IMG/VR virus record: IMGVR_UViG_3300027779_003171 | Location: 7,294-71,293 of that record | Source of the DNA: a virus | Reading direction: 5' to 3' (one strand) | Length of the DNA stretch: 64,000 bases | Part shown: positions 2-61,443 of the stretch, piece after piece | Position numbering within the stretch: position 1 is the first letter of the stretch | Layout of the letters: every line of letters starts with the position of its first letter | Program-made: the position numbers and the translations under genes | The notes under the pieces: model-generated | The model's database searches: none | Told to the model about the DNA's origin: nothing | Seen by the model: only the letters and a program-made list of their open reading frames with translations

Positions 2-3000
2 GTTGATAATCAATTAGAAAAAGATGCAGAACTCCAAGTATACAAGATTGAAGGGGAAATCCATTACGACGAATGGTGGTGGTACAATACCCCCAGTTGC
101 GAAGATGTAGAAGTACCTATAGAAAATCCACAGGGGAAAGTCACGGGGTATATGAACATTGGCCCAATTTCATTTCCATGTGTTGACGAGTCAAAAAACG
201 TGACCCCTATTACGGGCACAGCCTTTAAAAGAACTTTTGTGGAAGCTCCTCCAGTCTCTGGGACTTACGACAAGGTAAACTCGGAATACATACAAGGAAA
301 AACCAAATATTTTTACCCAACGCAGGATTACGGGGGTGACTTAACTTACGGGTTAGAGGATTACTACGAGCCAGCTGATTGTAGATGGATAACAACCATG
401 GGCCGAGTTGGGTCTGCTGCAAATCACGTCATAACAGACTCTTCTAATTATGAACCGTATTATTTCATAAATAATCTGGAAAACGGTGAAGGGTCTCCCT
501 TCCCAGGTTGGCATTGTAAGCTCAGTTTGGACGAAGGTTGGTGTCGGTCAAATGATCTTCATCTTATCGAAGGGGACTGTACTAGTCATGGACATGAGTG
601 GGTCAAACCTGCGGCTTCCTGTATTCACCCAGCCCCTCCTCCACCGTCAGCCTTCCCGAATGAGGGTCCAGTAAGGGACATGAGCTTAAGACACAGTTTA
701 CGGATGGAAGACCATGACGCTTCTGTAAATTATTGGGACGATTTGAGATCATGGGAATGGACCGGATTCGTAATGGCTCCATTACAATTTACAGACCTGA
801 GGTATAACACCCTTTATAAAGATCACTACTCCAACCCCGTGCTAAACGGCCCAAACTTAGGTAGAAGGGCGTTCTCTTTCAAAAATGCTTCCACCGCCCA
901 AGTCGTTGATGGAACATGCGGGCCTCCTCAACAATTTTCAAACCCTAACGATTCAAACCAATCGTACAACTTCAATGGCGGGCCGATGGTCTACGCCCAA
1001 GTGTGGACGCAGAACAGAACCAAGCGACAACAAACAAAGATTGGCTTATTCGTTGGAAATCCTTACAGGTATTGGGAAGACCCTTATGGAACTTTTGATC
1101 TCCACAGGACTGGCGGTTGGAATTTCCCGATAATAAAAGAAGCATATGGGCAAGGCTGGGCCGAGACGGTTGGTGGTTTCGTTAATATAGATTTTCATGG
1201 CACTAAAATTTCACCCAACTATAACGAGGGGGGAGACAGGCAATACAAATACCAAGGAGAAGAAGAGTCCTTTTTCGTTGGAACGGGGATAGACCCTCAA
1301 ACAAACGAAAGATACTCTGGCTTATGGAAAGGGGGGGGCGAATACGGGCCTTCATCTACGCCTTGGTTGCCCTATGACCCTGATCCCCCCGACCCATTTC
1401 ATTACAATCAAGAACTGATTACTCCTCATAAGTTCTTTGGTATGGGGGATGGGTGTGTAGGCATACCAACGGAAACAGAGTGGTCGTTGAATGCGGGACA
1501 AAGATATTCTTACCATAGCATAAACCTAACGGGGATAACTCACCCGTATCTAAAAACAATTACAGGTGTCATAGCTGAAGAGGTTAATAAGTATACAAAT
1601 GGCGTAGAAGAATTCTTTAAACCAGGCATACTGGGGCAGCATGGAGACAATTACTGGGATGATTTTGTCACTGGATGGATAAATACGGGAGACTACGCGG
1701 GGGAATCCGTCCACTGCTTGCACCTAAGAACTGGATACTCAACAACCCCAGGCTCACCCAAAACGAAGGTATACCATTGGTTGGGTACAGGTCAGTTCGA
1801 TGTCCATTATAATTTTCCGTATAAAGGCGTAGATTGCCTAATAAACCACGGACCAATATCTCCATACCCAAACATGAGTAAATGTTGCGATCTCTTTGCC
1901 CCGCCTTTTAACGGGTGGACGGGCAATGCGATTTGTTACCCGACTACGACAACGACGATTGACCCATCAGCGACTACCACAACTTGCGATCCTTACGAGA
2001 TGTGCACGACCACGACACTGGACCCGATGGCTCAGTACGAATGCGATGACGGAATAAAGGTAACTTGCCCAGACGGCCTAGCACCAACTGAGTTCTACAA
2101 TTCGGAAATCGGGCTCTGTGATTGGGATATGTGCACAATGGCCGGTTGCTATACCAAAGCCGATTGGTGGGATGACGTTATCATGTGGGACTCTGGCATC
2201 TTCCCTCACGAAAGAGATTGGGCGGAGCGAAAGCACAGACAAAGGAATGAAAATCCACCCAGGTATTGGTACGGACCCTACGCAAGCACCCATTTCACGT
2301 TTTTATATCCCAACGCTCAAGCTGTGTTGGACATCCACTACCCTTCGGGGTTACGGGATGAATTCCCCGTGACGGGTTTCCCAGAAAAAATAACATTTGA
2401 CGTAGAAATAGAAGAATATCTAGTAAAAGACGTGGTTTCTGGTGGGTATATAGATGAAGATGGGGCAATCGTTTGGGATGAAATTTTAAAAAGCGAAGAA
2501 GGCGGACCTGCGCCATCTTTTACAACTGGAAACTCGGGACAGCACGGTATCCCGTGGAATTTGGTTGATGAAAATTACGTACCGCTAATTGAAAGATCAT
2601 CAGACTGGCCGCCTCTACCAGGGGAAACCACCCCACCGTACACGAAGGTTCCTGGGATAGGCGAATGGCACGATCAGGTAGTAAACTACGCCCTTGCGAA
2701 TGGGAGAAATTTTTCAACCTACGATCACCCGACTCGATTTGATAGGGGTAACCAATACGCTACTGGAGTAACTTACGGGTACGGAACGACGACCTCTAAT
2801 GCTTCCTATGGTCAATTGCATTTTCCAGTTGGGGGATTTAATCTTTACTCGAAATATTCGTTCTCACAGGAAACCACTTACGCTAGACCCACATTTACTC
2901 TTAACACCCTTGAGAATAATACGACTAGCTTGTTGAAGTCTTTGAGTCTCGGCAATGAAGTATTCTATGACTGTGGGGGCAACGGGCTTAAGATATTCGA

Positions 3001-4954
3001 TCCAAACCTGCCTCTGGACGAGTGGGGCGGTGGCGATCAGATGAGGCATGCTTATGATTACTATGACCCTATCTACTTCATGCCCATGCAAAGTAATCTG
3101 AGGGAAACGGGCGTATATAATCAGGGCGGTCTTGCTCGGGAAAATGAGCCCTTCACGGGAACACTGGTTCACCCAAAGCAAATATACGGTGACCGTTGGA
3201 TGGGTTTAAGACCACAGTCAGTGTTTAGTAAATTTACTTACGAACTTGAGTCAGGCTATAATGACGCGAGCGTCAACTCTTACGTTGCGGGAAGCCCAGG
3301 TGACCTAATCACAGCTGAGACTGGCCGACACGGGACTCACGAAATCCTTTACAACAGCGAATATGATCCGACTTGTGCAGAGATAATTGGCGGATGGGAT
3401 GAAACTGCGGGTATGGGGGGAGGCATGTGGTGCGGAAATATCTCCGAGTGCTATGATACGTGTACCGGGGTTTCAGGTCCACCACGTCCCCACGAAGTAA
3501 GGCTTACGGAACATCCCTGTCTGAATTTCGAATTAGGCGATGAGGATGGCTCTTTCATCACGAGCAAGGATAATAGGGTTTGGCTGTTTAATTTAGACGC
3601 ATCAGGAGTAGACATGCACGTCAGAGCACCCGATTGCCTTTCGGGGTATCTCTTTAACGTTGGGGATAATCCTGGGGGCGGTGCATTGATGGGCGGCACG
3701 ATGTCTACTCCAGGAGACCTCCTTGATGACCTGGGATTTGGTGGCGGCTCCCTCAACTCCCATGCGGCTACCGCAGCCCTAGGGTTCCGCATAACAGGAA
3801 CAAGCATGTTATGGAGCCTTGAGGAGGGAGCAGCCGTTCCAACGGAAGGAAATAAACAGATAGACTTCTTCAAGCCTGGGTGGGTGCAGGACCATAAAGT
3901 GGTTAGTTATAATGGGGCTATTTACGAAAAAGAGGGGATACTTTACGAAAAACCATCCGACGAAGGGTGGAAAATGGGAGAAGATGCCCAAGGAAATGTC
4001 ACGGGATACGAAACTCTACTCCGGTACGGGACTAGAATGGCAGTTAGTGCTGGTTCATCTGGACCTCAAAACAAATTAAGGGTATCTGGCTGGAAAGAAA
4101 CATCTAGGGTCGCGATCAAGCTTTCGAATTTTGAAATCGCAAATTACGGGGCGTTCCCTCACGATTCTTATTTTTCGATGGAGGAAAGTGGTAACGCCAT
4201 GGTAACGGGCCGGTTGGATCATGTATGCGCGGCTGAAGCGTCCATTTATTCAGAAGGTATAGTGCTGGAAGACAAAAGTGATGACCCGTTGAGGGATGTA
4301 TTGGACTACCCTCATTACGCCTCGCCGACAATCAAGAGGCCGGGGGTTGAGCTTCCTTCGGGGAACTATATATATGGCGAGTATACCCCTGACGAAGAAG
4401 TAGTACCAATGAAACATATTTCCTTGGCTCCATCTAGAATGATGGTAAGAAAGCTTGAATGGTTCATTATGGGCACAGGCCAAGAGAATTACTTTGAGTT
4501 ATTTAAGGGAGAACCTCACTTCTACAACAGGTACATCTGGCCCACTCGAAGCGACATGTCTCAGTGGAACGGGGGAACGTTATCGTGGGAAAGTTCACCC
4601 CCGGTAGATGCCGTAACGTACCCGCTTACTGAACTGATGATCTCCGCTCAAGCAGGTCAACCGACCCCCGACAAGGCTCAAAGCGAATTTATCCAAAGAA
4701 ACTATGCATTAACGCAACATATCGCTTTCTATGACGGTGTTGTGCTAGACCCGACGATAAATAAGGAGTGGCGGGTAGATTTGGACATTAAGTTCTCCGT
4801 CCAGCCGAAGACTTCCTACTTTGTTGCCCAGGGTACATCCGTATTGGATGTTATGAACGAGATTGTCCCTGCCGCCAAACAAACGCTATGGGAAGATGGT
4901 TCTGACTCTAGCGAAGGGGGCGAAGAAGGGGTGGTCGGGATAATTAGTGATTAA
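2..4954 (+). CDS. Giant virion/tail-associated protein, 5'-partial (>1650 aa)
   Basis: Frame is open from position 2 through the ORF 152..4954. Rich in G/T/Y/W/P/D with Cys patches and a Thr-rich linker (PTTTTTIDPSATTTTCDP). The structural role is inferred from size and composition only. Confidence 0.55.
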   Translation, partial: VDNQLEKDAELQVYKIEGEIHYDEWWWYNTPSCEDVEVPIENPQGKVTGYMNIGPISFPCVDESKNVTPITGTAFKRTFVEAPPVSGTYDKVNSEYIQGKTKYFYPTQDYGGDLTYGLEDYYEPADCRWITTMGRVGSAANHVITDSSNYEPYYFINNLENGEGSPFPGWHCKLSLDEGWCRSNDLHLIEGDCTSHGHEWVKPAASCIHPAPPPPSAFPNEGPVRDMSLRHSLRMEDHDASVNYWDDLRSWEWTGFVMAPLQFTDLRYNTLYKDHYSNPVLNGPNLGRRAFSFKNASTAQVVDGTCGPPQQFSNPNDSNQSYNFNGGPMVYAQVWTQNRTKRQQTKIGLFVGNPYRYWEDPYGTFDLHRTGGWNFPIIKEAYGQGWAETVGGFVNIDFHGTKISPNYNEGGDRQYKYQGEEESFFVGTGIDPQTNERYSGLWKGGGEYGPSSTPWLPYDPDPPDPFHYNQELITPHKFFGMGDGCVGIPTETEWSLNAGQRYSYHSINLTGITHPYLKTITGVIAEEVNKYTNGVEEFFKPGILGQHGDNYWDDFVTGWINTGDYAGESVHCLHLRTGYSTTPGSPKTKVYHWLGTGQFDVHYNFPYKGVDCLINHGPISPYPNMSKCCDLFAPPFNGWTGNAICYPTTTTTIDPSATTTTCDPYEMCTTTTLDPMAQYECDDGIKVTCPDGLAPTEFYNSEIGLCDWDMCTMAGCYTKADWWDDVIMWDSGIFPHERDWAERKHRQRNENPPRYWYGPYASTHFTFLYPNAQAVLDIHYPSGLRDEFPVTGFPEKITFDVEIEEYLVKDVVSGGYIDEDGAIVWDEILKSEEGGPAPSFTTGNSGQHGIPWNLVDENYVPLIERSSDWPPLPGETTPPYTKVPGIGEWHDQVVNYALANGRNFSTYDHPTRFDRGNQYATGVTYGYGTTTSNASYGQLHFPVGGFNLYSKYSFSQETTYARPTFTLNTLENNTTSLLKSLSLGNEVFYDCGGNGLKIFDPNLPLDEWGGGDQMRHAYDYYDPIYFMPMQSNLRETGVYNQGGLARENEPFTGTLVHPKQIYGDRWMGLRPQSVFSKFTYELESGYNDASVNSYVAGSPGDLITAETGRHGTHEILYNSEYDPTCAEIIGGWDETAGMGGGMWCGNISECYDTCTGVSGPPRPHEVRLTEHPCLNFELGDEDGSFITSKDNRVWLFNLDASGVDMHVRAPDCLSGYLFNVGDNPGGGALMGGTMSTPGDLLDDLGFGGGSLNSHAATAALGFRITGTSMLWSLEEGAAVPTEGNKQIDFFKPGWVQDHKVVSYNGAIYEKEGILYEKPSDEGWKMGEDAQGNVTGYETLLRYGTRMAVSAGSSGPQNKLRVSGWKETSRVAIKLSNFEIANYGAFPHDSYFSMEESGNAMVTGRLDHVCAAEASIYSEGIVLEDKSDDPLRDVLDYPHYASPTIKRPGVELPSGNYIYGEYTPDEEVVPMKHISLAPSRMMVRKLEWFIMGTGQENYFELFKGEPHFYNRYIWPTRSDMSQWNGGTLSWESSPPVDAVTYPLTELMISAQAGQPTPDKAQSEFIQRNYALTQHIAFYDGVVLDPTINKEWRVDLDIKFSVQPKTSYFVAQGTSVLDVMNEIVPAAKQTLWEDGSDSSEGGEEGVVGIISD

Positions 4955-22755: not shown

Positions 22756-23043
22756 TTAGATTAACTCTTCTTCCACAACGGTGGTTGCTTCTATCACGGG
22801 CTGCTTAACCGTCTCGTTTTGCGTATTGTTTGAGTTGGTGGGGTCAGTAGACTTGTAGACCCTGTAGTCGGGATGAGTATCCTTTTTCTTATGTTTGTTG
22901 GTGAAGATAACCACCTTCACTTTGTTGTCATCACCATCAGTGAAGTGACCAGAAAAATATTTCTGGTTCGGACTCTCTTTTACCCACAAAGCACCTATTT
23001 CGCGCTTTGCCCATTCGTTTTGTTCTGAGTTTTGTTCAGTCAT
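22756..23043 (-). CDS. DUF736-like protein (possible ssDNA-binding)
   Basis: IGALW..KYFSG..KVVIF.N..HPDYRVY pattern with an acidic tail. Confidence 0.55.
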   Translation of the reverse strand: MTEQNSEQNEWAKREIGALWVKESPNQKYFSGHFTDGDDNKVKVVIFTNKHKKKDTHPDYRVYKSTDPTNSNNTQNETVKQPVIEATTVVEEELI

Positions 23044-23058
23044 ATCGTAGGGATAATA

Positions 23059-23688
23059 CTATTGTTCTGGAAACGTGTCAATGTTTATTTTTCCTTTAAG
23101 TCTATTTTTTAAGATACCGAGCCCCTTCTTGTGTAGGTTGATCGCGGTTTGTATGCTCATACTGAGGCTTTCTGATATGTTTTTCCAAGTTCCATCTTTT
23201 TTTGTATCGTAAAAATATCTCATGCGAAAGATTTTTTTTATCCTAGAGTCTTTCAGATCATCTAGTGTCGATAGCATTATCTCAAACTCTTCTGACAGGT
23301 TATTGGTGTGGTCGGGGGCAAATTGGCTATCTTCTATGAAATCGTGAAGCTCTTCTGTGTCAGCGTTAAATATATATTTTTTTGAATTTACATAGTTCAA
23401 GCACGTAAATTTAGCATAATTACCTAGCCACGTTGAAAATTTTGTTTTCCTTGATGGATCGAATGACTGAGCACACTTTAATACTATTAAATCTTTTTCA
23501 GCGTACACATCTTCTGGCTGTACGCCTGACTTTATCAGGGCGTATTTGTATTTTTGGCAGATTTTGTAGTATACATTCTCATATCTTCGGCAAAGCTCCA
23601 GAAAACTATCTTCACACCCGTGTATTTTCAGCCTTTTCGTAAGCTGAGAGTCCGTTTTCTTTTCTATTGAGCCACGTAATGAAGGCAT
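23059..23688 (-). CDS. Phage sigma70-family sigma factor
   Basis: Region 2 FDPSRKTKFSTWL and region 4 HTH TWKNISESLSMS. Confidence 0.8.
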   Translation of the reverse strand: MPSLRGSIEKKTDSQLTKRLKIHGCEDSFLELCRRYENVYYKICQKYKYALIKSGVQPEDVYAEKDLIVLKCAQSFDPSRKTKFSTWLGNYAKFTCLNYVNSKKYIFNADTEELHDFIEDSQFAPDHTNNLSEEFEIMLSTLDDLKDSRIKKIFRMRYFYDTKKDGTWKNISESLSMSIQTAINLHKKGLGILKNRLKGKINIDTFPEQ

Positions 23689-24241
23689 CTATATGGGGGT
23701 CAAGTTGTCTGTCTATATCTCCTTTAGCTCTTTCCCACTCAACAGTGTAGTCCGCCTGAGCTTCTATCAAGGGGTCGTTCCTTCGCTCCTCTTCGTTTAT
23801 TGGCTTTCTGTAGTGGTTGTAGCTAGTGAAGCCACGGTCAATGTGTTCATACATAGAAATATGAACAAGGAGCCCGCCCAGCTCCTCCTTCAGCCAGTAA
23901 ACCTCGTCTTTGGGAAAGTCGTCATATCTTATATCTGTAATTACGACGACTGAACTAGCTAGATTATTTTTTATTTCTTTATTTAATTTATTAATCCAGT
24001 GGCGACCCTCAGAAAGGTTTCTCTTAAATGCTCCGTGGAACACCAGAAGGGGGCGAATCGAATCCTTTTCTTCGCGAGTACAGGTTAGTGGGTTGACACC
24101 ATATTGATCCTCTAAAAACGGAGCAACCTCTTCTTTCAGCGCGTCCGCGAGGGAGAACTTTTGACAATTCAATTTTTCGGAAAGCAAACTGAAGAATAAA
24201 TCTTTTCCTGCTCCCGCAACACCAGATAAGCCTATGATCAT
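23612..24241 (-). CDS. Deoxynucleoside monophosphate kinase
   Basis: IIGLSGVAGAGKD, LADALKE and VITDIRY motifs. Confidence 0.8.
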   Translation of the reverse strand: MIIGLSGVAGAGKDLFFSLLSEKLNCQKFSLADALKEEVAPFLEDQYGVNPLTCTREEKDSIRPLLVFHGAFKRNLSEGRHWINKLNKEIKNNLASSVVVITDIRYDDFPKDEVYWLKEELGGLLVHISMYEHIDRGFTSYNHYRKPINEEERRNDPLIEAQADYTVEWERAKGDIDRQLDPHIDAFITWLNRKENGLSAYEKAENTRV

Positions 24242-24315
24242 CTTAAGTATACTATTACGGTTACGGGATTAGTTAAAGCTAAAAGATGGTGTGGTAATTT
24301 TTTCTTTAAGCATAA

Positions 24316-24350
24316 ACACAACACCCCCCACCGAAGGGGGGATGCTGTGT
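24316..24350 (-). terminator. Intrinsic terminator closing the candidate ncRNA
   Basis: ACACAGCATCCCCCC-TTCG-GTGGGGGGTGTTGTGT followed by TT on the minus strand. Confidence 0.65.
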
Positions 24351-24693
24351 AGCGTGTGCTGCTTTTTCTTTGAAGCCCTATGTTTTTAAAATGGATGGGT
24401 TGTTCCACGACACGCTGCAAATCAGTTTAAAACTGAGCCTAACTACCGTTTTTTTGGCGGGAGAGACCGTACCACAGAAAACTCCGCTTACGTTAGGCCA
24501 CCTAGCTTTCGCTAACGATGGGGTAAACCTTGGCACTTAACCAAGTGTCTTTTGATTACATGCAGTTTGTAATCAGCCGTCCCTTGATTCGGCAGTAGGC
24601 TAACTGCCACGCTTACTTTGCTTCAGCTATCTTAGGAAAACTCTTCAGATTTCTCTCCGCGAGCTTAAAGAGGGCCACCCTCTTTTTGGACGG
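24316..24693 (-). ncRNA. Candidate large structured ncRNA (~380 nt), family unknown
   Basis: Gap with no credible ORF, bounded by a promoter (24698-24725) and a terminator. Contains many hairpins and long-range complementary segments. Confidence 0.65.
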
Positions 24694-24697
24694 ACTA

Positions 24698-24725
24698 AGG
24701 ATAACAGCATCTTGATTGTCGTCAA
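24698..24725 (-). promoter_or_regulatory. Sigma70-type promoter for candidate ncRNA
   Basis: TTGACG-N16-TATCCT with TG extension. Confidence 0.6.
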
Positions 24726-25213
24726 CTATTTTTTTCATCGTCGTCCAAGCCAGCCTCTTCCTTGTATTTTTCCTTGTAGAAGTTCAGGATGTGAAGGACG
24801 TTAAGTACGTCTTTTGAGTTAAGGTCGGCGGGGTCGCTCCAATCGCTTTTATCTTCAATGAGTTCGCAGAAACAGTTGATTTCTCTTGATATGTAGCTTG
24901 CCATTTGAGCGGTGACATCAATGCTTTGCGAGTTGGAATCCAAAGGCTTCTTTAGTATGTAAATTACCTTAGTCTCGCTGTCTTTCAACTCCTTGTTCCA
25001 AGTCGTCTGTTGCTGGCGAGTGAGAAGCTCACTTTTGCACCAATCGTCTAACGCACACTGGACCGCCCCCTTGTCTCTCGCTGGAAACTCTGTTATGAGT
25101 GTGATCTTTCGGAAGTCTTCCTCCATAATAAAGGAATCGCTTTCCTTGAAAAATTCCCAGAGTTTACTGTAAGCTTCGAAAACTGTCATATTTATTGTAT
25201 TGAGAATTGTCAT
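24722..25213 (-). CDS. Hypothetical protein
   Basis: 163-aa ORF with plausible composition. Confidence 0.65.
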   Translation of the reverse strand: MTILNTINMTVFEAYSKLWEFFKESDSFIMEEDFRKITLITEFPARDKGAVQCALDDWCKSELLTRQQQTTWNKELKDSETKVIYILKKPLDSNSQSIDVTAQMASYISREINCFCELIEDKSDWSDPADLNSKDVLNVLHILNFYKEKYKEEAGLDDDEKNS

Positions 25214-25267: not shown

Positions 25268-25687
25268 ATGTCAGAAGAAGAGAGAATAGATTGGTACGAA
25301 TACTCCATGCTTCTGGCTTTTGCAGCGGCGAAGAGAAGCGAAGACCCCTATAGGAAGGTGGGTGCTTGTGCCCTTAATAAAGACAAAATGGTAGTTGGCC
25401 TTGGCTACAACGGGCTGGCTTCAGGCAGGGATGCGCCAGAGGGCTTCTGGAGGGACAGAGACTCTCGTCGGCAATACATGATCCACGCGGAGACGAACTG
25501 CCTTTCTTTGTGTAAGAGGGGTGAGGTCGAGTTGCTGACTGTCACGCTTTTGCCTTGCTCTTATTGCGCCACCATGATAGCAGCTTACGGAGTTAAGGAG
25601 GTCCTATATCATGAAGAGTACGAAAATGACCAAGCGGCTAAAGATATTTTTAGTTTCTACAATATAGATATGCTAAAGTTTGATTGA
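25268..25687 (+). CDS. dCMP deaminase
   Basis: RSEDP..KVGA, GYNG, HAETN and PCSYC motifs. Confidence 0.92.
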   Translation: MSEEERIDWYEYSMLLAFAAAKRSEDPYRKVGACALNKDKMVVGLGYNGLASGRDAPEGFWRDRDSRRQYMIHAETNCLSLCKRGEVELLTVTLLPCSYCATMIAAYGVKEVLYHEEYENDQAAKDIFSFYNIDMLKFD

Positions 25688-31025: not shown

Positions 31026-31099
31026 GCGGGTGTCGTATAATGGTATTACTCCAGCCTTCCAAGCTGATAACGCGAGTTCGATTCTCGCCACCCGCTCCA
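31026..31099 (+). tRNA. tRNA-Gly(TCC)
   Basis: Cloverleaf with acceptor stem GCGGGTG/CACCCGC, TTCGA T-loop and encoded CCA. Confidence 0.95.
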
Positions 31100-31102
31100 G
31101 TC

Positions 31103-31179
31103 GCTCTTGTAGCTCAATTGGATAGAGCATCGGTTTTCTAAACCGAGGGTTCTGGGTTCGAGTCCCAGCGGGAGTACCA
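31103..31179 (+). tRNA. tRNA-Arg(TCT)
   Basis: Anticodon arm TCGGT-TTTCTAA-ACCGA; encoded CCA. Confidence 0.95.
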
Positions 31180-31192
31180 CCTTGGGAAAGAT

Positions 31193-31435
31193 ATGAGTGA
31201 AAGAACTAAAAAATACTTTGAGACGGGAAAGGGGAAGAAAGCTTTGAATAAAGCGAGGAAGGCATACGACCAAAGAGACCCCGAGAAAAGAAGGAAACAA
31301 AAGAGGGACTACATGCGTCGGAAAAGGGCAGAAGACCCTGATGCTTGGAAATATAAAAATTTACAACCATCCGTTGTGAAACAAGAGAAAAAAACAGACC
31401 AAAATGAAAAACAAAAATACAAGCGAAAGCTGTGA
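31193..31435 (+). CDS. Small basic hypothetical protein
   Basis: K/R-rich ORF between tRNAs. Confidence 0.5.
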   Translation: MSERTKKYFETGKGKKALNKARKAYDQRDPEKRRKQKRDYMRRKRAEDPDAWKYKNLQPSVVKQEKKTDQNEKQKYKRKL

Positions 31436-31727
31436 TACCCAAACGGAGACTTGCAGCACGACAAAAGAAAATAGATTAACAACGGTTAAGACTGTTTATG
31501 CTAGGGCTGCTGTAGTTCTGCTGGCTCTCAACTTCGGCCTTACTGGTTACGTGGTTTACAATATGAACCAAAACACACAGGCTCAAATTGATGGTCTTAC
31601 AGAGGGTGCGTCCATGAGGGGGGCGACGACTCCGGGAACGACCACGACGGATCAAACCCCCCAAACCGCTGGCACTCAAACAGAGCAGGGAACAACACCT
31701 TCTCCTGTCACCACGAGAGACCAATAG
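31404..31727 (+). CDS. Hypothetical single-pass membrane protein
   Basis: One TM segment and a Thr-rich tail. Confidence 0.6.
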   Translation: MKNKNTSESCDTQTETCSTTKENRLTTVKTVYARAAVVLLALNFGLTGYVVYNMNQNTQAQIDGLTEGASMRGATTPGTTTTDQTPQTAGTQTEQGTTPSPVTTRDQ

Positions 31728-31728
31728 A

Positions 31729-31803
31729 GCGAGCATAGCTCAGTGGAAGAGCAACTGGTTTACACCCAGTAGGTCGTAGGTTCGAATCCTTCTGCTCGTA
31801 CCA
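31729..31803 (+). tRNA. tRNA-Val(TAC)
   Basis: Anticodon arm ACTGG-TTTACAC-CCAGT; encoded CCA. Confidence 0.95.
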
Positions 31804-31852
31804 CCTCTATTTTGGTGTAATAACAACACGCCCTTTGGTGGGCGTTTTTATT

Positions 31853-32119
31853 ATGAAAACCAAAAAAACAAGGAAAAAAGGTAAAAAGAGCTCAAAACTT
31901 TCTTTTTTAAGGAAGTCTTGGGACAAACTAAAACATGGTGGAGAGTCTCTTTTGGGCTGGCTAGAGTGGCATACACGTCTAGTGGGAGCATTAGGACTTA
32001 TTGTTGCTGGTTGGGTGCTATTATGCCCAGCGGTTTCTCTTGAAGCTACTCTGGCTTGGGGGGCAATTGTTGTTGGTGGGTATCACCTACTAATGGAGCT
32101 GAAAGACAGGCTCCTATAA
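31853..32119 (+). CDS. Small membrane protein (2 TM, basic N-terminus)
   Basis: ATG at 31853 and two hydrophobic helices. Confidence 0.6.
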   Translation: MKTKKTRKKGKKSSKLSFLRKSWDKLKHGGESLLGWLEWHTRLVGALGLIVAGWVLLCPAVSLEATLAWGAIVVGGYHLLMELKDRLL

Positions 32120-32145
32120 GCCGCAAGACACCAATTATTAAACTT

Positions 32146-32174
32146 AAGCCCTACTTCGGTGGGGCTTTTTTTTT
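32146..32174 (+). terminator. Intrinsic terminator
   Basis: AAGCCCTAC-TTCG-GTGGGGCTT followed by a T run. Confidence 0.85.
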
Positions 32175-32200
32175 GACTCAGAATAAGGTTATGGTAAAAT
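32173..32200 (+). promoter_or_regulatory. Sigma70-type promoter for tRNA cluster
   Basis: TTGACT-N16-TAAAAT with TG extension. Confidence 0.65.
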
Positions 32201-32208
32201 ATCTTGAG

Positions 32209-32284
32209 GCTTGAGTAGCTTTAATGGTAGAGCACGGGTCTTGTAAACCTGAGGTTATCGGTTCGAGTCCGGTCTCAAGCTCCA
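32209..32284 (+). tRNA. tRNA-Thr(TGT)
   Basis: Acceptor stem GCTTGAG/CTCAAGC, anticodon TGT, CCA end. Confidence 0.95.
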
Positions 32285-32285
32285 C

Positions 32286-32361
<76 letters not shown>

Positions 32362-32367
32362 AATTTT

Positions 32368-32454
32368 GGCGAAGTGGTGGAATTGGTATACACAACAGAC
32401 TTAAAATCTGTCGGCGGTATCGCTATGCGGGTTCGAGTCCCGCCTTCGCTACCA
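32368..32454 (+). tRNA. tRNA-Leu(TAA)
   Basis: Long variable arm, anticodon TAA, CCA end. Confidence 0.95.
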
Positions 32455-57929: not shown

Positions 57930-58331
57930 GGGGGCGTACTGGATTCGATTTAGATTCTTACGCCAGATTGCAAGCGGAGGATAATGGTTGGCCTCTTTAA
58001 ACTTCCATTAAAAACATATATGCCAATAGTAATATTGACATGGCTCCTTCGGTAGCAGAAGCGGACGATATTCTCGCCCGTTTCGGTTTCCAAGAAGCCG
58101 CGCTGGCAGCTTAAGTCCTGCCCCGTCCTACTCTGGATGCTCGTTAAGGAGCTAGGGCGACGATAGCGAGCAAAAAACTAGGGTGAGCAGCACTAGGATA
58201 AAAGGCGGCTCGAAACTCGCGTAGGCCGTTTGTCGGTGACATGCCAAGCGAGTATTAACACCGACTAAGCTTGTAGTATATCTGAGCCGATGGCTCTGAA
58301 GACGTGGGTTCGATTCCCACCGCCTCCACCA
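57930..58331 (+). ncRNA. ssrA: tmRNA (one-piece)
   Basis: 5' GGGGGCG..GGATTCGA and 3' GGGTTCGATTCCC..CGCCTCCACCA with a G3-U pair. Tag ORF 58022-58114 ends ALAA-stop. Confidence 0.95.
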
Positions 58332-60518: not shown

Positions 60519-60782
60519 TTTACTGGTTGATCGCCAGTAAAGGGTGTGACCGAATAAACTGCTGTCGCGGCAGTTAAGGTACAGGGCTTGTTTGCAGGAG
60601 ATTACCGTCTCTAGGGGCTTACAAGGGCTGGTTCAAAGTAGGGTTTCTCACTGAAACTCAAGCTGTGACTCCGAAACGATGGAGGTAAATGAGAATCCTC
60701 CCACCCATAATTTACGCGCAGGAAACTGTGCCTTAAAGCAGGAGGTAAGGCTCTTACTTACCTTTCGACCTTGCCTCTTGCT
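60519..60782 (+). ncRNA. Structured RNA, core 60542-60706 resembling the manA RNA motif
   Basis: Closing GGGTG/CACCC pair, TGACCGAATAA 5' motif, terminal GGAGG-TAAATGAGAAT-CCTCC hairpin and flanking hairpins. Confidence 0.55.
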
Positions 60783-60798
60783 AAAATTTAAAAAAATC

Positions 60799-61443
60799 AT
60801 GAAAACACTGAAACTGAATAAGTATAAAACTAACGTGCACGGGACACTCCGAGCAGCCACCGAACAACTAGCTGTCAGAGTTGACAAAATCATCGAGTAC
60901 TACTCTTTCGCGGGGCAAGCCAATGGGCAGCAGACCGATAAAGAAGGGACAGTCGTCGTTACCGAGGGTGGGGAGCATTACGTTAAAGAGCTTTTCGCTA
61001 AGGTAACTACCGATATCAAAAAGGCTCGCTAATGGAGGATGAGCTAAGAAAGAAGGTTAAGACCTTGAGGATATTTATTTGTGTCCTCTTGGTCCTAACC
61101 TCATTTCAGTCAGCTTTCCTTTACCTGCTGTCGAAGGGGATAGTCCCTTCATCCTTGGTGGTGGTTAAAGAAGTTGTAATTAAAGAGGACAACAACACAG
61201 TAACAAGTATGAAGGATATTATAAAGGAGGAGAATGGTGAAAAATAATAAATTATTATATAATGCTTTAAAATCGAGGTACGAAGCACAGAAGGCAGAAG
61301 CTCTCGCTACTCTGGATGTCTACTACAGAAATGCTGCTGGCATCGGGGAGCATCCGCAAGTTGTGGAGGAGATGGCTAAACAATTGGAGTCACTAGCCAA
61401 CGCCGAGGATTGTCTAGAGTCGCTAAAGAAGAATTGCGCTTGA
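60799..61443 (+). CDS. Three small hypothetical ORFs (60799-61032, 61032-61247, 61234-61443)
   Basis: Coupled ORFs; the last has a GIGEHP motif common in phage proteins. Confidence 0.55.

What the first reader, a model, noticed from the sequence alone, without database searches (positions are those of the whole stretch)
24316..24725. Ornate ~380-nt non-coding RNA with its own promoter and terminator
Seen: a ~480-bp gap with no credible ORF in a dense genome, with a minus-strand promoter at one end and a TTCG-loop terminator at the other. Local hairpins include AAAGAGGG/CCCTCTTT, GGCAGT/ACTGCC, TGATTACA/TGTAATCA, TAGC-GAAA-GCTA and TCAGTTT/AAACTGA. Long-range pairs are 24688-93/24577-82, 24652-60/24457-66 (crossing the first, i.e. 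a pseudoknot), 24492-98/24437-43 and 24410-16/24351-57. I do not recognise it as RNase P RNA, tmRNA, 6S RNA or an intron. Large phage ncRNAs (GOLLD, ROOL) exist but are longer.
Basis: partly seen in the sequence, partly recalled or inferred. Interest (0 to 1): 0.75.

Follow-up and report, generated by a model that had tools for sequence, protein, structure and literature searches.

The report
New structured RNA gene in marine phages
The gap holds a real gene for a roughly 380-base folded RNA that matches no described RNA family, is shared by a clade of uncultured marine phages, and has part of its end repeated just behind its own terminator.

Summary
The observation largely holds. Window 24242-24721 is a non-coding gap on an uncultured marine phage contig. 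It carries a minus-strand sigma-70-type promoter (24725-24698) and a 14-bp terminator hairpin (24350-16). No Rfam family matches it, in the window or in 19 homologous loci.

I found 44 distinct homologues. Most lie at the same place, between ORF163 and a dNMP-kinase/sigma-factor operon.

Covariation supports these helices: P2, P3, P5, Pa, Hb, He and Hx. It also supports an H-type pseudoknot at 24408-24376.

- two are supported (24492-98/24437-43 and 24410-16/24351-57);
- one exists only in the window;
- the proposed pseudoknot shows no covariation and conflicts with a covarying helix.

One new feature emerged. The 23 nt before the terminator (24376-54) recur just after it (24311-24289), and the two copies change together across lineages.

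Best reading: a stand-alone structured ncRNA of a new family. It probably binds a protein, and the post-terminator "echo" may couple it to the next operon. Rival readings are a cis attenuator and an origin or primer RNA. Function is inferred, not shown. Expression evidence is one metatranscriptome contig.

The parts
24720..24737 (-). A-tract (UP-like) plus the -35 hexamer TTGACG (24725-24720). The stop codon TGA of ORF163 lies inside the -35.
   Evidence: TTGAC is invariant in A3.
24698..24706 (-). Extended -10, TGTTATCCT. The start of transcription is inferred at about 24691.
   Evidence: spacer 16, TG present. TTGACn-16/17-TAnnnT is correctly placed in 31 of 43 sequences. The start site is inferred, not mapped.
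24667..24685 (-). P1, the 5' hairpin AAAGAGGG/CCCTCTTT.
   Evidence: A hairpin of >=5 bp sits at this place in 36 of 43 sequences with different sequences.
24639..24665 (-). P2, a two-part hairpin (AGCUC...GAGUU around CGG/CUG) with the conserved loop AGAGAAAU.
   Evidence: 91% and 100% of cells pair, and 5 of 8 pairs are compensatory.
24580..24637 (-). P3, long-range helix UCCUAAGAU/AUCAAGGGA (24637-29 with 24588-80). It encloses a variable insert that includes hairpin GGCAGU/ACUGCC (24608-24591).
   Evidence: 6 of 9 pairs are compensatory and 67% pair (there is an internal AA/AA mismatch in the window's group). The insert differs between groups.
24553..24575 (-). P4, variable hairpin TGATTACA/TGTAATCA.
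   Evidence: A hairpin is present but variable in sequence and length in relatives. It was not counted formally.
24525..24553 (-). Nearly invariant A-rich linker AAAAGAC, then the P5 hairpin CUUGG/CCAAG (24545-24529).
   Evidence: P5 pairs in 98.6% of cells and 5 of 6 pairs are compensatory, with up to 5 pair types.
24499..24524 (-). Invariant CCC(C) and GG flanking an optional GAAA-tetraloop hairpin (UAGC-GAAA-GCUA, 24514-24503).
   Evidence: The hairpin is present only in the window's subgroup. The partner of the invariant C-run is undetermined.
24437..24498 (-). Three-way junction. Pa is GCCUAAC/GUUAGGC (24498-92 with 24443-37). It encloses the invariant GUAA, then Hb (GGAG/CUCC, 24485-24460) with a conserved U-rich loop, then hairpin Hd (24459-24445).
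   Evidence: Model R1. Pa pairs in 98% of cells with 6 of 7 pairs compensatory. Hb pairs in 100%, and its outer pair has UA, GC, AU and CG. The register of Hd is ambiguous (61.5% paired).
24422..24436 (-). He, hairpin UCAGUU/AACUGA.
   Evidence: 5 of 5 pairs are compensatory and 86% pair.
24351..24416 (-). 3' domain. Helix Hx is AGCGUGU/ACACGCU (24416-10 with 24357-51). It encloses the pseudoknot hairpin (24408-24391), whose loop CCC (24399-97) pairs with GGG (24378-76), and a purine-rich stretch.
24354..24376 (-). Copy 1 of the direct repeat, GCTTCAAAGAAAAAGCAGCACAC. It consists of the purine-rich block plus the 3' strand of Hx.
24308..24350 (-). Intrinsic terminator: a 14-bp stem-loop (24350-24316) and a U-rich tail (24315-24308). 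The RNA 3' end is inferred at about 24310.
   Evidence: The sequence GGGGGUnUUGUGU is nearly invariant. The 3' end is not mapped.
24289..24311 (-). Copy 2 (the 'echo'), GCTTAAAGAAAAAATTACCACAC, directly behind the terminator and 47 nt before the kinase ATG.
   Evidence: It is unique in the 64-kb window.
24241..24254 (-). Neighbouring feature: a -10-like TAGTAT lies 7 nt before the kinase ATG (24241). The kinase may have its own promoter and a leaderless mRNA.
   Evidence: This is inferred from sequence only.

Best explanation
SHOWN
- The gap is a gene for a conserved, highly structured RNA of about 380 nt (about 24691 to about 24310, minus strand).
- It has a sigma-70-type promoter (A-tract, TTGACG, TG-extended -10) and a long GC-rich hairpin with a U-rich tail.
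- The fold has at least nine covarying helices, a three-way junction, an H-type pseudoknot and several invariant single-stranded stretches: AGAGAAAU, AAAAnAC, CCCC, GUAA and GAGUUUU...GUYUCUC.
- It matches none of the 4227 Rfam families.

INFERRED
- It is made early in infection by the host RNA polymerase as a discrete, stable RNA.
- It works in trans as a protein-binding or scaffold RNA, in the manner of 6S, CsrB or the large 'ornate' phage RNAs. It is probably not a leader for one particular gene.
- Its 3' domain presents a purine-rich stretch closed by helix Hx. The same two blocks recur as DNA, and as read-through RNA, just behind the terminator and about 46 nt ahead of the next gene. They co-vary with the internal copy.
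- I therefore propose that one factor recognises both copies. That factor could be a protein, or the RNA's own Hx 5' strand. The level of the RNA would then be coupled to expression of the downstream nucleotide-metabolism/sigma-factor operon.

Confidence that this is a real structured-RNA gene of a new family is about 0.9. Confidence in the trans-acting mechanism with coupling through the echo is about 0.45.
For: NO KNOWN FAMILY
-.

FAMILY
- 49 nhmmer hits gave 44 distinct sequences.
- Model R1 found 40 matches in 89 sources. Model R2 found 39 in 43.
- The 38 sequences outside group C fall into 23 clusters below 80% identity.

COVARIATION
- score 0.56 against 0.21 for shuffles, 0 of 500 reaching it; 88% of cells paired against 35-52% when the partner is slid.
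- 23 of 34 pairs compensatory, 0 of 500.
- the pseudoknot, 8 of 9 pairs compensatory.
- Hx.

STRAND
- G-U pairs are abundant when read on the minus strand.

PROMOTER AND TERMINATOR
- Conserved.

INDEPENDENCE FROM ANY ONE DOWNSTREAM GENE
- The usual order is ORF163, RNA, kinase, sigma.
- In L086, L070, L061, L074, L048 and L023 the RNA has moved to the other arm of the divergent region, ahead of the ORF124/RNR side.
- In L008, L015, L058, L069 and L057 other genes lie between the RNA and the kinase.

POSSIBLE SEPARATE PROMOTER FOR THE NEXT GENE
- A -10-like element about 7 nt before the next ATG recurs in many lineages.

THE ECHO
- Within-genome alignment score is 12.7. Between genomes it is 8.1, and for shuffles 6.8 +/- 1.5.
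- A genome's own copy is strictly the best match in 12 of 23 clusters.

EXPRESSION HINT
- The only piece of the 1.7-kb stretch found in a metatranscriptomic run lies inside the RNA, at 24415-24625.
Against: - No direct evidence exists for the RNA's ends, abundance or stability. The RNA-library contig has depth 2.6 and could be DNA carry-over.
- No partner protein is identified. ORF163 has no Pfam or PHROG family, Atlas scores are below 0.9, and the AlphaFold model is poor at pLDDT 57.
- The RNA is always co-oriented with a following ORF. In 32 of 41 sequences that ORF starts within 150 nt of the echo, median 46 nt.
- The outer part of Hx can compete with the lower stem of the terminator.
- Both of those points fit a cis-acting attenuator equally well.
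- 12 of 43 sequences lack a recognisable TTGAC-type promoter at the usual place. In L079, L092 and L026 the upstream ORF runs into the RNA's 5' end.
- The echo could act purely at the DNA level, as two operator-like sites about 65 bp apart.
Confidence: 0.45

Rival explanations
1. Cis-acting leader or attenuator. The structured RNA would be the 5' leader of the operon behind it (kinase-sigma, or ORF124-RNR in rearranged phages). A ligand, protein or RNA that stabilises or opens the 3' domain (Hx plus the pseudoknot) would decide whether the terminator's lower stem forms, and so whether RNA polymerase reads on. The echo would take part in refolding of the read-through transcript, because it can replace copy 1 in pairing with the Hx 5' strand.
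For: - A same-strand ORF starts within 150 nt of the echo in 32 of 41 sequences.
- The RNA heads an operon in both gene orders.
- Extended Hx duplexes reach into the 5' strand of the terminator's lower stem, for example in window, L058, L061 and L095.
- The echo keeps complementarity to the Hx 5' strand in several lineages: L084 -9.3, L054 -9.5, L046 -8.0 and L021 -8.6 kcal/mol.
- The neighbouring genes are nucleotide-metabolism genes. As I recall it, such genes are a frequent target of riboswitches.
Against: - As I recall them, known riboswitch or attenuator leaders are much smaller than 380 nt with nine or more helices.
- The downstream gene is not constant.
- The terminator is long (12-14 bp) and conserved, and looks constitutive.
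- A -10-like element 7 nt before the next ATG suggests that gene has its own promoter.
- The echo lies behind the terminator, so it cannot influence the termination decision co-transcriptionally.
- No riboswitch family matched.
Confidence: 0.3
2. Replication element. The locus would be, or would contain, an origin of replication. The transcript would act as a structured pre-primer or R-loop former, as ColE1 RNA II and the T4 origin transcripts do (recalled). The two direct repeats about 65 bp apart around a GC-rich palindrome would be initiator-binding iterons, or the site where the RNA re-anneals to the template strand.
For: - The locus sits near the junction of the two divergent arms carrying the replication and nucleotide-metabolism genes: DnaE-type polymerase, DnaB helicase, RNR, dCMP deaminase and dNMP kinase.
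- Cumulative GC skew has its minimum near 25.0-25.2 kb.
- Two co-evolving direct repeats flank a palindrome. Lineage-specific co-variation is what iterons do with their initiator protein (recalled).
- The RNA's copy 1 has the sense of the non-template strand at copy 2, so it could hybridise to the template strand there. This is inference.
Against: - The skew minimum coincides with the switch in gene orientation, so it is not independent evidence.
- There is no AT-rich unwinding region; GC is 0.43-0.45 across the gap, the same as the flanks.
- There are only two repeats and no further copies in 64 kb.
- The bulk of the conservation is compensatory base-pairing with G-U pairs on one strand. That is selection on an RNA, not on duplex DNA.
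- A primer role would not obviously need nine helices and a pseudoknot.
Confidence: 0.1
3. No dedicated function. The gap would be a decayed gene or spacer whose hairpins are chance or merely terminator-related, or it would encode small peptides.
For: - Mechanical ORFs of 32-60 aa exist in the gap.
- Both strands fold better than shuffles, which by itself can reflect composition.
Against: - The element is conserved over lineages whose flanking proteins share only 25-40% identity.
- Compensatory changes occur in more than 30 base pairs.
- The promoter and terminator are conserved.
- 1- and 2-nt indels occur among natural variants and homologues.
Confidence: 0.02

Closest known systems
GOLLD and ROOL (large 'ornate' ncRNAs, often in phages or prophages, function unknown)
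   Same: Both are large, multi-helix, pseudoknotted stand-alone RNAs in phage genomes that also carry tRNA genes. Here six tRNAs and a tmRNA lie 6.5 and 33 kb away. Both lack any known function and were recognised only by covariation.
   Different: There is no sequence or structure homology. Rfam models give no hit at E <= 10 in the gap or E <= 1 in 19 homologues. This RNA is shorter, about 380 nt against about 580-800 nt as I recall. It is not adjacent to the tRNA array, it sits in the replication/nucleotide module, and it has a post-terminator echo. That those RNAs form RNA-only multimers I know only from the listing and the start of the abstract of bioRxiv 10.1101/2024.12.08.627333. I did not test this here.
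6S RNA and CsrB-type protein-sequestering RNAs
   Same: These are abundant stand-alone RNAs with a strong promoter and an intrinsic terminator. They act by mimicking the natural nucleic-acid target of a protein. The internal copy and echo here would fit a relation between a mimic and a genuine site.
   Different: There is no homology. There is no 6S-like central bubble and there are no repeated GGA hairpins. The bound factor is unknown. The comparison is functional analogy only.
Phage P4 CI RNA with seqA/seqC, and P1 c4 RNA
   Same: In those systems a small RNA sits beside direct repeats on the same transcript that are complementary to a segment of the RNA, and pairing controls transcription into downstream genes. 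Here the Hx 5' strand is complementary both to copy 1 and, in many lineages, to the echo.
   Different: Those RNAs are about 70-80 nt, are processed from a longer transcript, and belong to immunity systems of temperate phages. This RNA is about 380 nt and has its own promoter and terminator. Its repeats are one internal and one external copy. No integrase or immunity genes were seen nearby.
ColE1 RNA II and T4 origin transcripts (recalled)
   Same: These are structured transcripts from a sigma-70 or early promoter near replication genes. The RNA segment and the downstream DNA share sequence, so an R-loop is conceivable.
   Different: There is no homology, no AT-rich unwinding element and no RNase H-type processing signal that I could recognise. 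Nothing was tested experimentally.
Candidate structured RNAs of IMG/VR (Fremin et al. 2023, PMC10690425)
   Same: The same data source (IMG/VR phage contigs) and the same kind of evidence (CMfinder and R-scape covariation). Parts of this RNA may be among their 8495 candidates.
   Different: The passages I read say their candidates are 29-151 nt long. They highlight tRNA-like structures, terminators and gp32 leaders, not a 380-nt RNA. 'Sigma', 'kinase' and 'ribonucleotide reductase' occur 0 times in the main text.

Membership tests
Any Rfam 15 family (including RNase P RNA, tmRNA, 6S, SRP RNA, group I/II introns, GOLLD, ROOL, OLE, HEARO and the riboswitches) | A covariance-model score at or above the family's gathering score. 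| tested here: not met
   (whole window, gathering scores) gave no hit in 24242-24721. One search (gap at E <= 10) gave best scores of 11-12 bits against cut-offs of 55-90. One search (19 homologous loci at E <= 1) gave only tRNAs and one 25-bit YrlA hit, all outside the RNA.
Bacterial sigma-70-type promoter | -35 TTGACA-like and -10 TAnnnT hexamers 16-18 bp apart, conserved in relatives. | tested here: met
   (TTGACG-16-TATCCT with a TG extension); the regex hit 33 of 43 sequences. Two hits (L079, L092) sit at the wrong place, which leaves 31 of 43. Activity was not tested.
Intrinsic (Rho-independent) terminator | A GC-rich stem-loop followed directly by a U-rich tract. | tested here: met
   (14 pairs, 8 of them GC). 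A hairpin was found in all 41 full-length members. The tail is U-rich but interrupted (UUAUGCUU in the window), so efficiency is unknown.
H-type pseudoknot | A hairpin loop pairs with a downstream single strand, with compensatory changes. | tested here: met
   pseudoknot helix, 4 of 4 pairs compensatory and 84% paired. Hairpin, 4 of 5 pairs compensatory and 91% paired. 0 of 500 shuffles reach the score.
Riboswitch or transcription attenuator | Lies in the 5' UTR of the regulated gene, with no promoter in between. | tested here: inconclusive
   A same-strand ORF starts within 150 nt in 32 of 41 sequences. However, a -10-like element sits 7 nt before the ATG in many of them, and the downstream gene varies.
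Riboswitch or transcription attenuator | Mutually exclusive terminator and anti-terminator pairings. | tested here: inconclusive
   The outer part of Hx overlaps the 5' strand of the terminator's lower stem in several lineages. The GC-rich upper stem has no competitor.
Riboswitch or transcription attenuator | A specific ligand or effector. | not testable with these tools
   No calls bear on this.
Replication origin | An AT-rich unwinding element and multiple iterons. | tested here: not met
   GC is 0.43-0.45 across the gap, as in the flanks. There are only two repeat copies and none elsewhere in 64 kb.
Protein-coding gene | A conserved open frame, with indels in multiples of three. | tested here: not met
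   (1- and 2-nt indels).

The most novel reading that the evidence does not exclude
A clade of uncultured marine phages with a DnaE-type polymerase encodes a new class of large structured RNA that carries a built-in 'self-echo'. A 23-nt two-block segment of its 3' domain is copied just behind its own terminator, and the two copies co-evolve. In the boldest reading this is a molecular-mimicry circuit. The abundant RNA would titrate a factor (a protein, or its own antisense strand) that otherwise acts on the echo in front of the operon encoding the phage's sigma factor and nucleotide-supply enzymes. That would set the timing of the switch from host-directed to phage-directed transcription. A second bold reading, not excluded, is that the RNA re-anneals at the echo to prime replication. 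The divergent group C (L004, L016, L018) also repeats an internal 15-mer, AAGGATAAGCAGTCA, behind its terminator, although from a different part of the RNA. This suggests the echo principle, rather than a particular sequence, is what is conserved.
Probability: 0.2. Interest if true: 0.85.

Novelty: new variant of a known kind. Interest (0 to 1): 0.72.

Why it matters
Large, intricately folded non-coding RNAs are rare, and each known class has opened a new piece of biology: RNase P, tmRNA, 6S, and more recently OLE, GOLLD and ROOL.

This one has several features that make it worth pursuing.
- It is about 380 nt long, with at least nine covarying helices, a pseudoknot and several invariant loops.
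- It is present in at least 23 sequence clusters of environmental phages.
- It matches nothing in Rfam.
- It sits in the heart of the replication and nucleotide module, next to a phage sigma factor, in a phage lineage with no cultured relative.
- The co-evolving copy behind the terminator is an unusual feature that can be tested directly. It offers a handle on function that most orphan RNAs lack.

If the RNA controls the phage's transcriptional or replication programme, it would be a new regulatory principle for large marine phages. If it is an RNA-protein or RNA-only assembly, it is a good target for structure determination.

Tried and rejected
TOOLS AND SEARCHES THAT GAVE NOTHING
- blastn of the gap against 50,697 phage records found no match.
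- The search for related loci with the kinase alone found no relatives. The ORF163 alignment worked instead.
- mafft-qinsi is not installed, so structure-aware alignment came from two covariance models (R1, R2).
- A full-length model was not attempted because A5 has 453 columns, over the 400 limit.

ORF163
- It has no Pfam or PHROG family.
- Atlas hits are at most 0.86, which is chance level.
- The AlphaFold model has pLDDT 57.4, so I did no fold search.

CELLULAR GENOMES
- The family profile found nothing at E <= 10 in all 120.
- R1 on the 80 listed loci gave a best hit of 21 bits. That hit lies in a histidine-kinase coding region and is chance.

THE ECHO AS A GENERAL MOTIF
- Searched as a phage-sigma promoter or regulator site, it has no other copy in the window at up to 3 mismatches.
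- The degenerate two-block pattern gave 3 hits against 1.5 expected.
- Read as a sigma-70 promoter, its hexamers fit only in L003 and L002 (by eye).
- Read as a ribosome-binding-site mimic, it fails because only 9 of 51 genes have any Shine-Dalgarno-like sequence.

OTHER REJECTED READINGS
- Small ORFs run through the terminator in L058 and L023, but they are not conserved.
- RNAalifold paired the invariant central CCCC with the terminator's G-run. Both sides are invariant, so this cannot be tested.
- RNAalifold on group A paired 24670-63 with 24311-04, the start of the echo. This complementarity is not kept in groups B and others (by eye).

SEQUENCING RUNS
- Only contigs were available, so starts, ends and strand could not be read.
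- The absence of the RNA-library contig from the flanking genes is no evidence that they are silent.
- I drew no habitat conclusions from DNA runs with small shares.

GROUP C
- L004, L016, L017 and L018 are not found by R1 or R2 at E <= 0.01.
- They are placed in the family by synteny, promoter and terminator position, and partial sequence similarity only.
Full report
WHAT THE WINDOW IS

The window is part of a 71-kb IMG/VR virus contig estimated to be 41% complete.

Genes on the minus strand run from 4951 to 25213. They include a DnaE-type DNA polymerase, a DnaB-like helicase, a glycosyltransferase, a sigma-70-family sigma factor (23059-23688) and a dNMP kinase (23612-24241).

Genes on the plus strand start at 25268. 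They include dCMP deaminase and both ribonucleotide-reductase subunits.

The polymerase has no relative above 30% identity among 50,697 deposited phage records. The gap DNA has no match there at all. The same window carries six tRNAs, a tmRNA and a manA RNA.

CHECKING THE OBSERVATION

The 480-bp gap (24242-24721) contains only short mechanical ORFs.

The consensus scan finds TTGACG-16-TATCCT with a TG extension at 24725-24698 on the minus strand. It also finds a 14-pair hairpin at 24350-24316 followed by a U-rich tail.

The minus strand folds with z = -3.9 and the plus strand with z = -3.4. No shuffle of 100 folds as well on either strand.

Rfam gives nothing. There is no hit at gathering scores, only chance-level scores of 11-12 bits at E <= 10, and nothing in the RNA region of 19 homologous loci at E <= 1.

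FINDING RELATIVES

The upstream ORF163 has 30 database relatives at 56-92% identity, none with a Pfam family.

An alignment of 16 of them (A1) retrieved 3 viral and 15 metagenomic loci. In these the gap is syntenic and alignable.

I scanned IMG/VR with a motif from the most conserved stretch. It returned 79 loci. A sequence profile recognised the element in 49 of the 98 loci then held, which made 44 distinct sequences.

In 39 of the 49 rows, five of which are duplicates, ORF163 lies directly upstream on the same strand and the kinase or sigma gene lies downstream.

In L086, L070, L061, L074, L048 and L023 (plus its duplicate L096) the RNA has moved to the other arm and precedes the ORF124/RNR side.

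In L079 and L092, tblastn found no ORF163 match.

The flanking proteins of the distant members share only 25-45% identity with the window's.

No convincing copy was found in cellular genomes. The family profile found nothing in the 120 fetched loci. R1, run on the 80 listed loci, gave only a chance hit.

STRUCTURE AND COVARIATION

A covariance model of the central domain (R1) found 40 matches. On its alignment:
- Helix Pa (24498-92 with 24443-37) pairs in 98% of cells and has compensatory changes in 6 of 7 pairs.
- Hb pairs in 100% of cells, and its outer pair has four pair types.
- He has compensatory changes in all 5 pairs.
- The overall covariation score is 0.56 against 0.21 for shuffles, with 0 of 500 shuffles reaching it. 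Slid controls pair in only 35-52% of cells.

On a 24-sequence full-length MAFFT alignment (A5), helices P2, P3, P5, Pa and Hb together pair in 87.5% of cells. 23 of 34 pairs show compensatory change, and 0 of 500 shuffles reach the score.

The 3' domain has two supported elements.
- Helix Hx (24416-10 with 24357-51). A duplex of <= -7.8 kcal/mol forms in 32 of 38 sequences, with quite different sequences. The mean is -9.8 against -6.8 kcal/mol for shuffled partners. On the alignment from model R2, 5 of 7 pairs are compensatory.
- An H-type pseudoknot inside Hx. The hairpin is 24408-24391, and its loop CCC(A) pairs with GGG at 24378-76. Four of four pseudoknot pairs and four of five hairpin pairs show compensatory change, and 0 of 500 shuffles reach the score.

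G-U pairs are frequent when the sequence is read on the minus strand. Pa has 44 G-U cells against 5 non-standard cells. The selected molecule is therefore the minus-strand transcript, not duplex DNA or the opposite strand.

P1 is a hairpin in 36 of 43 sequences.

Several single-stranded stretches are invariant or nearly so: AGAGAAAU, AAAAnAC, CCCC, GUAA, GAGUUUU and GUYUCUC.

Two are right: Pa and Hx.

24688-93/24577-82 is perfect in the window at -13.9 kcal/mol. Even the closest relatives lose it.

The proposed pseudoknot 24652-60/24457-66 has a conserved complementary core. Its covariation does not exceed the shuffles (383 of 500 reach the score). Its flanking pairs break in 13 and 16 of 24 sequences. 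It also uses the strand that forms the covarying helix Hb.

PROMOTER, TERMINATOR AND NEIGHBOURS

A correctly placed TTGACn-16/17-TAnnnT is present in 31 of 43 sequences. The regex hit 33, and I dropped two misplaced hits, L079 and L092.

In the window and its group, the stop codon of ORF163 lies inside the -35, and an A-tract precedes it.

In the L079/L092/L026 clade, P1 is missing and the upstream ORF ends inside the conserved UUAAGCUC.

A terminator hairpin was found in all 41 full-length members. The sequence after the G-run (UnUUGUGU) is nearly invariant.

A same-strand ORF of at least 70 aa starts within 150 nt of the end of the element in 32 of 41 sequences, at a median of 46 nt. In many it is preceded at about 7 nt by a -10-like TAnnnT. 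This suggests a separate promoter and a leaderless mRNA. Only 9 of 51 genes in the window have a Shine-Dalgarno-like sequence.

THE ECHO

The roughly 23 nt just before the terminator consist of a purine-rich block, a 4-5-nt variable spacer, and the 3' strand of Hx. In the window this is 24376-24354. The same segment recurs directly behind the terminator at 24311-24289.

The two copies differ between lineages but stay alike within a genome.
- Among 23 clusters below 80% identity, the within-genome local-alignment score averages 12.7.
- Between genomes it averages 8.1.
- For shuffled sequence it is 6.8 +/- 1.5.
- A genome's own copy is strictly the best match in 12 of 23 clusters, and in the other 11 at least one foreign copy ties or beats it.

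The motif occurs nowhere else in the 64-kb window.

The divergent group C repeats a different internal 15-mer behind its terminator.

I could not establish what the echo does. Because it is a sense copy, the Hx 5' strand is complementary to it as well. It could also be a second binding site for whatever recognises the 3' domain, or a DNA-level site about 45-70 bp upstream of the next gene's putative promoter.

EXPRESSION

Of the 24 runs listed for the 1.7-kb stretch, one is metatranscriptomic. That run contributed a single 213-nt contig with no mismatched bases and one 2-nt insertion relative to the window. It covers 24415-24625, entirely inside the RNA, and nothing over ORF163 or the kinase.

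This is a weak hint only. The depth is 2.6, only contigs were available, and DNA carry-over is possible. The DNA runs show natural 1-nt and 2-nt indels in loops.

INTERPRETATION

It is shown that this is a conserved, strand-specific, intricately folded RNA element with promoter and terminator signals, belonging to no described family.

I infer that it is a discrete trans-acting RNA, confidence about 0.45. The reasons are its size and complexity, its conserved strong signals, its mobility relative to neighbouring genes, and the likely separate promoter of the next gene.

A cis-acting attenuator (about 0.3) is the main rival. The RNA always heads a co-oriented operon, and the outer part of Hx competes with the terminator's lower stem.

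An origin or primer role (about 0.1) would explain the location and the repeats. It does not explain the wealth of RNA-level covariation, and there is no AT-rich element.

Chance or coding is excluded for practical purposes.

LITERATURE

Two full-text searches found no description of this RNA.

The IMG/VR survey of candidate structured RNAs (PMC10690425; I read passages only) reports candidates of 29-151 nt. Its main text does not mention sigma factors, kinases or ribonucleotide reductase. Its supplementary lists were closed, so a sub-motif of this RNA may already be catalogued there.

For GOLLD and ROOL I saw only the listing and the start of the abstract of bioRxiv 10.1101/2024.12.08.627333. 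Comparisons with P4 CI RNA, P1 c4, ColE1 RNA II and T4 origins rest on recall.

VERDICT

This is a genuine new family of large structured phage RNA. The unexplained co-evolving echo behind the terminator is the most interesting lead.

Noticed in passing
window 57930-58331 (+): A phage-encoded tmRNA (Rfam 133 bits) with an unusually long predicted tag of 30 residues, ANSNIDMAPSVAEADDILARFGFQEAALAA.
   Followed up: no
window 31026-32454 (+): An array of six tRNA genes (Gly-tcc, Arg-tct, Val-tac, Thr-tgt, Ala-tgc, Leu-taa), all with T at the anticodon's first position.
   Followed up: no
window 60521-60711 (+): A manA RNA motif just above its gathering score (60.4 against 55.2 bits), upstream of ORF 60679-61032.
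   Followed up: no
window, all genes: Only 9 of 51 ORF starts have a Shine-Dalgarno-like sequence. Several first genes of operons have a -10-like TAnnnT 7-12 nt before the ATG (kinase 24254-24249, deaminase 25268, ORF 22756-23043). This suggests leaderless or SD-independent initiation, and a host that tolerates it.
   Followed up: partly
window 24720-24725 / ORF 24722-25213 (-): The stop codon (TGA) of ORF163 lies inside the RNA's -35 hexamer TTGACG. The same overlap is seen in L002, L003, L005, L007-L009, L013 and L015. ORF163 has an acidic C-terminus and no recognisable family.
   Followed up: partly
window 23612-23688 (-): The mechanical ORFs of the sigma factor (23059-23688) and the kinase (23612-24241) overlap by 77 nt. 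The true sigma start is probably further downstream.
   Followed up: no
L079, L092, L026 (RNA 5' end): In this clade the P1 hairpin and the TTGAC promoter are missing. The upstream ORF ends with TAA inside the conserved UUAAGCUC of the RNA, so the RNA may be co-transcribed or processed there.
   Followed up: no
L004:3190-3215 and 3389-3412; likewise L016, L018: The divergent group C elements share the position, promoter and terminator. They repeat a different internal 15-mer (AAGGATAAGCAGTCA) behind the terminator. Models R1 and R2 do not detect them at E <= 0.01.
   Followed up: partly
window 24448 and 24419: Natural populations carry a 2-nt insertion in the A-run loop of hairpin Hd and a 1-nt deletion near the 5' end of the 3' domain (between He and Hx) (DNA and RNA runs).
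   Followed up: no
L032:230-380 and 4818-4891; L073:2097-2170: tRNA genes lie within a few kb of the RNA in some relatives, on the opposite strand.
   Followed up: no
window 2-4954 (+): A very large ORF (1650 aa or more, open at the window's 5' end) precedes the replication module. I did not examine it.
   Followed up: no
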